64,000 bases of DNA. Source: Octopus vulgaris. Its lineage: Eukaryota. Position 1 is the stretch's first letter. The number at the start of each line of letters is the position of its first letter. Shown here one piece after another: positions 41,801 to 42,899 of the stretch. The stretch lies in contig OX597828.1 of NCBI GenBank assembly GCA_951406725.2, positions 3,472,001 through 3,536,000 of the forward strand, in the 5' to 3' direction. The position numbers and the translations under genes were made by a program. The notes below the pieces were generated by a model. That model searched no databases, was not told the origin of the DNA, and was given only the letters and a program-made list of their open reading frames with translations.

Positions 41801-42021
41801 ATATATAAGCAATAATAAATCTCTGAACGAGGTATAAACAGTAACTGCACGACAATGTAAGGTATACTAGCCATCTCAATATGGCTAACCACCAAGGGTG
41901 GGTGTTACTGTAGCTTGTAGCCCCAGGAGAACATCTCCTCCAGCTGGCTTTAAGCACACTTTCTGTGCTCTAAGGTATTTGCAAAGGGAGGTCACCCTTC
42001 CCTCGTCAACCTAAATGATAC

Positions 42022-42064
42022 GTACGGACTGCAGTTTCTAGGTATTGACCTGTCATTAGCGTAC
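42022..42064 (-). ncRNA. Second hammerhead copy with mutated core (CTAATGA), probably inactive
   Basis: Reverse complement is GTACG-CTAATGA-CAGGTCAATACCTA-GAAAC-TGCA-GTC-CGTAC. Confidence 0.6.
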
Positions 42065-42284
42065 GACAATCACCGGTTTTCGATGATAAAGTGTTCCAAT
42101 GCAAATCCTTATATATCGTTTTTCCAGTAACGATTCGTCACTGATCTCGATAAACTGCATGCAAGCAATAATAAATCTCTGAACGAGGTATAAACAGTAA
42201 CTGCACGACAATGTGAGGTATACTTGCCATCTCTTGCCAAGGATTTGCATTGGAAAACTTTTTCATTGAAAACCGGTGATTGTC

Positions 42285-42327
42285 GTACGCTGATGACAGG
42301 TCAAAACCTAGAAACTGCAGTCCGTGC
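42285..42327 (+). ncRNA. Minimal type I hammerhead ribozyme motif
   Basis: GTACG-CTGATGA-C-AGG-TCAAAA-CCT-A-GAAAC-TGCA-GTC-CGTGC: stem I GTACG/CGTGC, stem II AGG/CCT, palindromic stem III ACTGCAGT, GUC cleavage triplet. Confidence 0.75.
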
Positions 42328-42899
42328 GTATCACTTAGGTTGACGAGGGAAGGGTGACCTCCCTTTGCAAATACCATAAGGGCACAGAAAGTGTGCCTAA
42401 AGCCAGCTGGAGGAGATGTTCTCCTGGGGCTACAGGCTACAGTAACACCCACCCTTAGTGGTTAGCCATATTGAGATGGCAAGTATACCTCACATTATAT
42501 ATATATATATATATATATATATATATATACACACATGTATGTATGTATGTATAGGCAAATATATGAATATATTCTTACATATATGTAGGTACGTGTACAA
42601 ATATGTATATGTAAATATATGTATATATATATATCCGTGTATAGGTATTTGTACTCCTTTCTGATTTTTGATCTACGCTGAACAAATATGCGGGGCATCT
42701 GACTTGGAAACGGGTTGCCTCTCTTTCTTTCTTTTTCTACCTTTCTCTTTCTCTCTCTTTCTCTCTCTCCCTCCCTCTCTCCCCCTCTCTCGCTCGACAG
42801 TCTCACCTCCACATTCTTTCTCCACCTAAAACCGCTCCGTTCTCGGCCTGGTCTCCAGCATAGGGCATATCTCGTACTACTTTTAGATAGAAGTGTGAC

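What the first reader, a model, noticed from the sequence alone, without database searches (positions are those of the whole stretch)
41807..42496. ORF-less inverted-repeat element carrying a hammerhead ribozyme in each arm
Seen: ~257-bp inverted arms (about 15 differences by eye), a 71-bp direct repeat in the spacer, (TA)n flanks, no coding capacity, and a complete CTGATGA..GAAAC..GTC core at 42285-42327 with pairable stems I and II and a palindromic stem III (ACTGCAGT). The position normally occupied by G10.1-C11.1 is C.A in both arms, so it is probably a family trait. The minus-strand copy has CTAATGA. Known: Penelope-like retroelements have pLTRs with minimal type I hammerheads, proposed to cleave as dimers, and form partial-tandem or inverted 5' ends. 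Inference: a non-autonomous, ribozyme-bearing (retrozyme-like) family with an atypical core. Any read-through transcript would also fold into long dsRNA.
Basis: partly seen in the sequence, partly recalled or inferred. Interest (0 to 1): 0.8.

Follow-up and report, generated by a model that had tools for sequence, protein, structure and literature searches.

The report
Mini Penelope-type insertion with hammerheads
This 690-base mirror-image insertion is one copy of an abundant, non-coding 356-base repeat with a hammerhead ribozyme motif; it was likely pasted in by a Penelope-type jumping gene, a layout already described, and its odd C·A mismatch beside the catalytic core is untested for activity.

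Summary
Observation confirmed. The arms are 258 nt with 15 differences, the direct repeat is 71 nt, and the type I hammerhead at 42285-42327 beats chance (0 hits in 200 shuffled windows). Read on the minus strand, the element is a 356-nt unit, a 71-nt stub of the unit before it, and an inverted 258-nt copy lacking a 47-nt tail, all in (TA)n. That is the published insertion layout of Penelope-like elements (PLEs), here without an ORF. Contigs from 4 of 4 runs show an abundant family with falling 5' depth, the head-to-tail joint and scattered inversion points. The family has G5, so CTAATGA is a rare allele. C·A at 10.1·11.1 is likely the family state (38 of 78 variant rows hidden). Two hammerhead copies are predicted to cofold as a double hammerhead. 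Stub and right arm share minor alleles that the left unit lacks, which points to a linear two-unit template and not a monomer circle. Core conservation was inconclusive (p=0.39). Cleavage, expression and the autonomous partner are untested. Verdict: a new retrozyme-like, non-autonomous PLE family of a known kind.

The parts
41807..42162 (-). Full 356-nt non-coding unit ('unit B'), 43% GC; hammerhead-sense strand is minus
   Evidence: Repeat spacing 356; head-to-tail joint in 4 of 4 runs; GC; fold z -4.99 on minus, -3.05 on plus
41807..41853 (-). 47-nt 3' extension present at this end only (PLE 'tail'-like), abutting (TA)n
   Evidence: Right arm stops at the 41854 equivalent; tail described in PMC8557442 and PMC11167929
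41854..42110 (-). Left arm, part of unit B
42021..42065 (-). Left hammerhead with G5A (CTAATGA), likely inactive; predicted cut between 42027 and 42026
   Evidence: about 99% of depth reads G5 in X2, X3 and X6, and all of it in X9
42163..42233 (-). 71-nt stub: 3' end of the upstream unit ('unit A'), forming the partial tandem
   Evidence: 97% to 41807-41877; 24/24 identical to the right arm where they overlap
42234..42238 (.). 5-nt filler at the inversion junction, the same letters as 42224-42228
42239..42496 (+). Inverted, 5'-truncated copy without the tail, head-to-head with the left part
42284..42328 (+). Intact type I hammerhead motif, C10.1.A11.1 mismatch, palindromic helix III; predicted cut after 42322; helix I predicted to extend past an internal loop to about 42275-42335
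41777..41806 (.). (TA)n target, left, preceded by (TCTA)n
42497..42529 (.). (TA)n target, right

Best explanation
This is one insertion of an abundant, non-coding 356-nt hammerhead-bearing repeat, likely a non-autonomous Penelope-like element (retrozyme-type) that was likely reverse-transcribed into a (TA)n site by a PLE protein supplied in trans. Proposed steps. (1) Inferred: a head-to-tail multimer is transcribed. (2) Inferred: the PLE endonuclease nicks (TA)n, and one cDNA starts at the end of the tail of unit B and runs through B into the last 71 nt of unit A. (3) Inferred: the opposite target end primes a second cDNA at the pre-tail site of unit A and copies 258 nt. (4) The two products join head-to-head with a 24-nt overlap and a 5-nt filler; the layout is shown, the route is inferred. 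Both cDNAs cross a hammerhead cut site, so the template would have been uncleaved (inferred). The hammerhead is predicted to work only as a dimer through its ACUGCAGU palindrome and is likely slow because of the C.A pair. At this locus it is likely silent: the left copy has G5A, and a read-through RNA is predicted to bury both motifs in a 258-bp hairpin.
For: The layout matches the published PLE one: partial tandem, inverted 5'-truncated copy, tail at one end, microsatellite targets (PMC8557442 passages). Head-to-head inversion with a short overlap and a shorter inverted pLTR is described in PMC3846280 (passages). Two RT start sites bounding the tail, AT-rich cleavage and an uncleaved template are shown in vitro for another PLE in PMC11167929 (parts 1-2 of 4). 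Family data (contigs of 4 runs under three organism codes): 5775, 5316, 2338 and 526 contigs laid. In X2 and X3, summed depth falls from about 2e6 near 41900 to about 6e4 near 42130; X6 and X9 fall the same way. The 42150-42162 to 41807-41810 joint is in 4 of 4 runs with differing letters between. 6 of 15 listed joints change strand, each at a different place. 2 of 32 listed long pieces (both X3, about 13-17% different) bridge the arm into the spacer with 31 or more letters on each side. Stub and right arm share the minor alleles at 41859 (30-41% in X2 and X3) and 41869 (21-22%), while the left copy has the major ones. The unconstrained cofold of two hammerhead copies is the double hammerhead: -21.9 kcal/mol, helix III pair probabilities 0.83-0.98; the monomer hammerhead fold scores only -2.5 against -9.3 for a misfold. 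A compensatory change 41953/41969 between the arms, and family variants at 41930/41934 of similar share, keep downstream hairpins paired (unphased).
Against: No autonomous partner was seen, and no genome was available to look. Head-to-tail joint depth (tens to a few hundred) is far below spacer depth (about 6e4) and depth dips at 42083-42118, so some spacer sequence could belong to a longer parent. Joints at 80% likeness can come from other repeats, and contig depth is no copy number (tool caveats). Core conservation is not shown: 0 of 20 core places against 29 of 336 others are polymorphic, Fisher p=0.39, on 40 of 78 rows. Family variants at 41936 and 41937 (29-48%) break a predicted hairpin, and 42048 (9-36%) breaks the top pair of helix II unless an unlisted partner change exists. 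The two-template inference rests mainly on two sites and could reflect later mutation or gene conversion. The tail is 47 nt against the 30-40 described. 8 of 9 Xenopus retrozyme dimers did not cleave in vitro (bioRxiv 2026.07.22.740005), so activity cannot be assumed.
Confidence: 0.68

Rival explanations
1. A gutted or 5'-truncated by-product of an autonomous PLE. The 356-nt unit would be an internal deletion joining the parent's 5' end to its pLTR, and most family depth would come from truncated parent copies.
For: Steep 5' depth loss and a dip at 42083-42118; low joint depth. A second inverted element in the window (49510-50220) keeps what may be the end of a PLE ORF (motif recalled).
Against: Divergent contigs bridge arm to spacer (2 of 32 listed pieces). 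The joint occurs in all 4 runs with varied letters. Spacer depth is about half that just upstream of the hammerhead. No loose end of several contigs is listed near 42110, though 630 loose ends are hidden.
Confidence: 0.17
2. A classical circRNA retrozyme: multimers self-cleave to monomers, circularise, and more-than-unit reverse transcription of the circle gives the 71-nt redundancy.
For: Unit size, GC under 50% and type I hammerhead fit PMC7229834 (parts 2-3 of 6; mussel units 350-390 bp). The unit folds better than shuffles. The dimer fold is favoured.
Against: One circle gives one haplotype, but stub and right arm differ from the left unit at family-polymorphic sites. There is no depth step at the cut site in X3, X6 or X9, and no pile of ends is listed (contigs are weak for ends). 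The family could still make circles even if this insertion did not come from one.
Confidence: 0.1
3. The hammerhead is a dead relic in the whole family: C.A abolished cleavage, and the element spreads on its 3' hairpins alone.
For: 10.1-11.1 is the most conserved pair besides 15.1-16.1, and U.U was the best-tolerated mismatch (PMC3088659). PLE insertion in vitro does not need cleavage. Depth is highest 3' of the hammerhead.
Against: No listed polymorphism at 20 core places (not significant); palindrome and helix I kept; the axolotl U.U variant cleaves. This rival can coexist with the best explanation.
Confidence: 0.3
4. A MITE-like DNA transposon or an assembly artefact: the arms are terminal inverted repeats or a fold-back chimera.
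For: Long inverted arms in TA context with no ORF.
Against: The arms differ at 15 sites, so this is not an artefactual mirror. The ends are asymmetric (tail on one side), inversion points vary among copies, and depth is polar.
Confidence: 0.03

Closest known systems
Endonuclease-bearing Penelope-like element insertions with pLTR, tail and inverted 5' copy (PMC8557442, PMC3846280, PMC11167929; passages and parts read)
   Same: Partial tandem, head-to-head inverted truncated copy with short overlap, one-sided tail, hammerhead in the repeat, AT-rich microsatellite target, 5' truncation.
   Different: No RT/GIY-YIG ORF; the repeating unit is only 356 nt; the tail is 47 nt; (TA)n targeting is stressed for Naiads, which lack canonical hammerheads, so the driver clade is open.
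Animal non-LTR retrozymes (PMC7229834, parts 2-3 of 6; bioRxiv 10.64898/2026.07.22.740005, parts 1 and 3 of 5)
   Same: 150-450-bp non-coding head-to-tail unit, GC under 50%, type I hammerhead with 2-bp helix III and tetraloop, proposed PLE dependence.
   Different: Here only 1.2 units lie in tandem plus an inverted copy; circular RNA and cleavage are not shown; the template looks linear and two-unit.
Axolotl HHR_Amex2 and other U10.1.U11.1 hammerheads (PMC7229834, PMC3088659)
   Same: Mismatch at the base of helix II with a 2-bp helix III; Amex2 is weak as a monomer and efficient as a dimer.
   Different: The mismatch here is C.A, which I did not see described in the passages read.
PLE minimal hammerheads (PMC4209133, parts 1-2 of 4)
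   Same: Palindromic helix III region, dimer model; opposite-strand pairs 100-700 bp apart already reported.
   Different: Those have a 7-8-bp helix II, an extra 5' nucleotide and conserved G10.1-C11.1; this one has a 4-bp helix II on a C.A pair and a 6-bp helix I.

Membership tests
Type I hammerhead ribozyme | Core C3 U4 G5 A6 N7 G8 A9, G12 A13 A14, A15.1-U16.1, H17 | tested here: met
   Right arm complete; left arm G5A; family about 99% G5
Type I hammerhead ribozyme | Helices I, II and III formable (III as monomer or dimer) | tested here: met
   Dimer cofold MFE is the double hammerhead; monomer fold is not the MFE
Type I hammerhead ribozyme | Paired 10.1-11.1 (usually G-C) | tested here: not met
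   C.A in both arms and no listed family variant; active natural exceptions with U.U exist
Type I hammerhead ribozyme | Core more conserved than flanks, with stem covariation | tested here: inconclusive
   0/20 against 29/336, p=0.39, on 40 of 78 rows, unphased
Type I hammerhead ribozyme | Self-cleavage after C17 | not testable with these tools
   Needs an in vitro assay
Penelope-like element insertion | Partial tandem plus inverted 5'-truncated copy, head-to-head | tested here: met
   varied inversion joints
Penelope-like element insertion | 30-40-bp tail at one end only | tested here: met
   One-sided 47-nt extension, slightly longer than described
Penelope-like element insertion | 5' truncation of most copies | tested here: met
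   Depth falls at least about 30-fold from the 3' part to the spacer in 4 of 4 runs; contig depth is a rough measure
Penelope-like element insertion | Target-site duplication | not testable with these tools
   Both flanks are (TA)n
Autonomous PLE | ORF with telomerase-like RT and GIY-YIG endonuclease | tested here: not met
   No such frame in the element; the only Pfam hit among 21 of 22 window ORFs scanned is an RT at 4025-4996 that looks LINE-type
Non-autonomous PLE | Shares 3' end or pLTR with an autonomous PLE in the same genome | not testable with these tools
   No genome held
Non-LTR retrozyme | Non-coding 150-450-bp unit, GC under 50%, type I hammerhead | tested here: met
   356 nt, 43.3% GC
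Non-LTR retrozyme | Tandem arrays with two or more hammerheads on one strand | tested here: inconclusive
   Head-to-tail joint in 4 of 4 runs and an inferred two-unit template, but no array seen directly
Non-LTR retrozyme | Expressed as monomeric linear and circular RNA | not testable with these tools
   Only contigs available; no holder on record as RNA

The most novel reading that the evidence does not exclude
A very abundant animal retrozyme-like family has fixed a C10.1.A11.1 hammerhead, a variant that standard descriptors and Rfam miss, which cleaves only slowly and only as a dimer. The family moves not through RNA circles but through uncleaved linear multimers primed twice by a PLE protein, at the two sites that bound the tail. 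The haplotype split between the arms of inverted copies would then be a genome-wide record that decides between the circle and linear-template models of retrozyme movement.
Probability: 0.25. Interest if true: 0.55.

Novelty: new member of a known kind. Interest (0 to 1): 0.3.

Why it matters
The element is an ordinary product of PLE biology, but it offers two handles. First, how animal retrozymes move is still open: the 2026 preprint says the mechanism remains to be elucidated. Inverted copies whose arms can be assigned to haplotypes would test circle against linear multimer from genome sequence alone. Second, a family-wide C.A at the most conserved helix II pair would widen the natural hammerhead range, and such motifs are rejected by descriptors that demand a pair there (PMC3088659 methods).

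Tried and rejected
Rfam: 0 hits at gathering score in 64 kb, and no hammerhead family among 10 hits at E<=10 over the element. Pattern scan for the C.A core: 0 in viral contigs; 2 in metagenome contigs, both rejected as chance because they lack helices I and II, share nothing else with the element and overlap the start of an unrelated ORF. No other copy of the family in the window. No place with many molecule ends was listed, which contigs cannot show well. The conservation test was inconclusive. The window RT at 4025-4996 was rejected as the partner because it looks LINE-type by recalled motifs. Lünse et al. 2016 (RNA Biol 14:1499; seen only as a reference entry) is not held and may already describe a C.A variant. 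Searches for the variant in print: 'hammerhead G10.1 C11.1' gave 4 papers and 'hammerhead 10.1 11.1 stem II mismatch' gave 2; no C.A case appeared in the listings or in the passages read. The supplements of PMC9901934 and PMC3088659 gave no usable data on this pair; their figures, the supplements of PMC4209133 and PMC7229834 (not opened) and the preprint's supplements (closed) may bear on it. Searches for this family in print listed nothing specific. The MITE and artefact readings were rejected as above.

Full report
Context. The window is AT-rich, microsatellite-rich DNA with almost no long ORFs and looks like an animal genome. No call names the host; my recalled guess is a cephalopod, untested. 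No genome is held, so family data come from one lay of assembled contigs.

Observation. The arms are 41854-42110 and 42239-42496, 258 columns with 15 differences. The 71-nt direct repeat is 41807-41877 / 42163-42233. The plus-strand hammerhead has a complete core, a 6-bp helix I, a 4-bp helix II sitting on C.A, and the palindrome ACTGCAGT; the minus-strand copy has G5A. My descriptor found this motif once in the real window, never in 200 shuffled windows and never in 20,000 shuffles of the element; it was written with the motif in view. Rfam misses it.

Anatomy. Taking the hammerhead strand as sense, 42238 to 41807 reads: the last 71 nt of one unit, then a whole 356-nt unit ending in a 47-nt extension and (TA)n. 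The right arm is a second, 5'-truncated copy pointing outward, without the extension, overlapping the stub by 24 nt and joined through a 5-nt filler. PMC8557442 (passages) describes this for PLEs: partial tandems, an inverted 5'-truncated copy and a 30-40-bp tail at one end. PMC3846280 (passages) describes an inverted pLTR that overlaps the direct one by 15 bp and notes that head-to-head is the usual orientation. PMC4209133 (parts 1-2 of 4) already reports opposite-strand hammerhead pairs 100-700 bp apart.

The family. Twenty listed runs hold part of the element, under four organism codes and ten studies. I laid 4 of 24 on the unit at 80% likeness: 5775, 5316, 2338 and 526 contigs. Summed depth falls at least about 30-fold from the 3' part to the spacer in each run. 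The tool warns that depth is no copy number; set against 40-80 for single long contigs in X2 it suggests very many copies (inference). The head-to-tail joint appears in all four runs, with different letters between its sides, so it is a family feature. Six of 15 listed joints change strand, each at its own place, so the inversion is likely made anew at insertion. Two of 32 listed pieces bridge arm into spacer properly. Against this, joint depth is low, depth dips at 42083-42118 and 630 loose ends are hidden, so a longer parent is not excluded. X2 could be the window's own source sample.

The hammerhead. The family reads G at position 5 in about 99% of depth, so CTAATGA is a rare allele. No variant is listed at 10.1 or 11.1, but only 40 of 78 rows are shown. 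Three listed variants fall in helix II and its loop; one gives G.U, one is in the loop and one breaks the top pair unless compensated. A single motif does not fold as a hammerhead (-2.5 against -9.3 kcal/mol). Two copies cofold without constraints into the double hammerhead (-21.9; helix III probabilities 0.83-0.98, helix II 0.65-0.76), with helix I extended past an internal loop. These sizes fit the canonical metazoan type I description in PMC4209133 better than its minimal type. A mismatch at the base of helix II has precedent: axolotl HHR_Amex2 has U.U, cleaves 22% in an hour as a monomer and far better as a dimer. PMC3088659 reports a natural U10.1-U11.1 and says U.U is the best-tolerated mismatch, so C.A is likely slower. 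I saw no C.A case in print, but could not read Lünse et al. 2016.

Mechanism. At the two sites where stub, right arm and left end overlap, stub and right arm carry the family's minor alleles and the left end the major ones. Both arms share alleles rare in the family at 41995 and 42090, so they are close kin. The simplest reading is two neighbouring units of one array on a linear RNA of at least about 660 nt. One cDNA would start at the tail end of unit B, the other at the pre-tail site of unit A. This matches the two RT start sites, the AT-rich nicking and the uncleaved template shown in vitro for the anole PLE (PMC11167929). The likeness to L1 twin priming is recalled; my search found no paper applying it to PLEs (3 unrelated listings). 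A monomer circle would give one haplotype, so it fits this insertion less well. Two sites are thin evidence, and later mutation or conversion could mimic them. Such a two-unit RNA would hold two same-strand hammerheads 356 nt apart, the arrangement the dimer fold needs. At the finished locus the motifs face opposite ways, one has G5A, and read-through is predicted to form a hairpin of about -500 kcal/mol, so this copy is likely inert.

Comparison and novelty. It works like a non-autonomous PLE and meets the sequence features of non-LTR retrozymes (356 nt, 43% GC, type I hammerhead). Arrays, circles, cleavage and the partner are unshown, so I call it retrozyme-like. A 2026 preprint argues that animal retrozymes derive from PLEs and found cleavage in only 1 of 9 dimers tested (parts 1 and 3 of 5). 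A second, unrelated inverted element of the same layout lies 7 kb away, and earlier unchecked notes of this scan report similar elements in other genomes, so the layout is common. Verdict: real, a new member of a known kind, interest 0.3. The C.A variant and the haplotype test are the parts worth following.

Noticed in passing
window 49510-50220: A second head-to-head inverted element in (TA)n, arms 49560-49820 / 49959-50219 (263 nt, 96.6%), with a hammerhead-like core of the U3-A8 type and G10.1-C11.1; each arm has a different indel in the GAAA box, so my descriptor missed it. About 50 extra nt lie at the left end only. A short minus-strand frame ends in a P-x-L-N motif that I recall from PLE endonuclease ends. 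No similarity to the 41807 element.
   Followed up: partly
window 52463-53331: 194-nt inverted ends (78%) around broken frames that resemble a mariner-type transposase by recall; not scanned against Pfam.
   Followed up: no
window 4025-4996 (+): 323-aa ORF with an RVT_1 hit (E 2e-10), LINE-like rather than PLE-like by recalled motifs.
   Followed up: partly
window, e.g. 376-541, 18365-18534, 36440-36586, 63322-63479; and 2430-2883, 25816-26217, 48299-48679: Two dispersed short repeat families with many copies each, SINE-like by size.
   Followed up: no
loose ends at window 41855, 41916, 41949 and 41972: Many contigs leave the unit at the same places in three or four runs; one group has a different, shorter 3' tail that still ends in the same four bases before the TA run. 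This suggests related subfamilies and short palindromic insertions.
   Followed up: no
window 41856-41970 (-): A row of short hairpins 3' of the hammerhead, in the most frequently retained part of the unit; one shows a compensatory change between the arms (41953/41969). Candidate binding site for the mobilising protein.
   Followed up: partly
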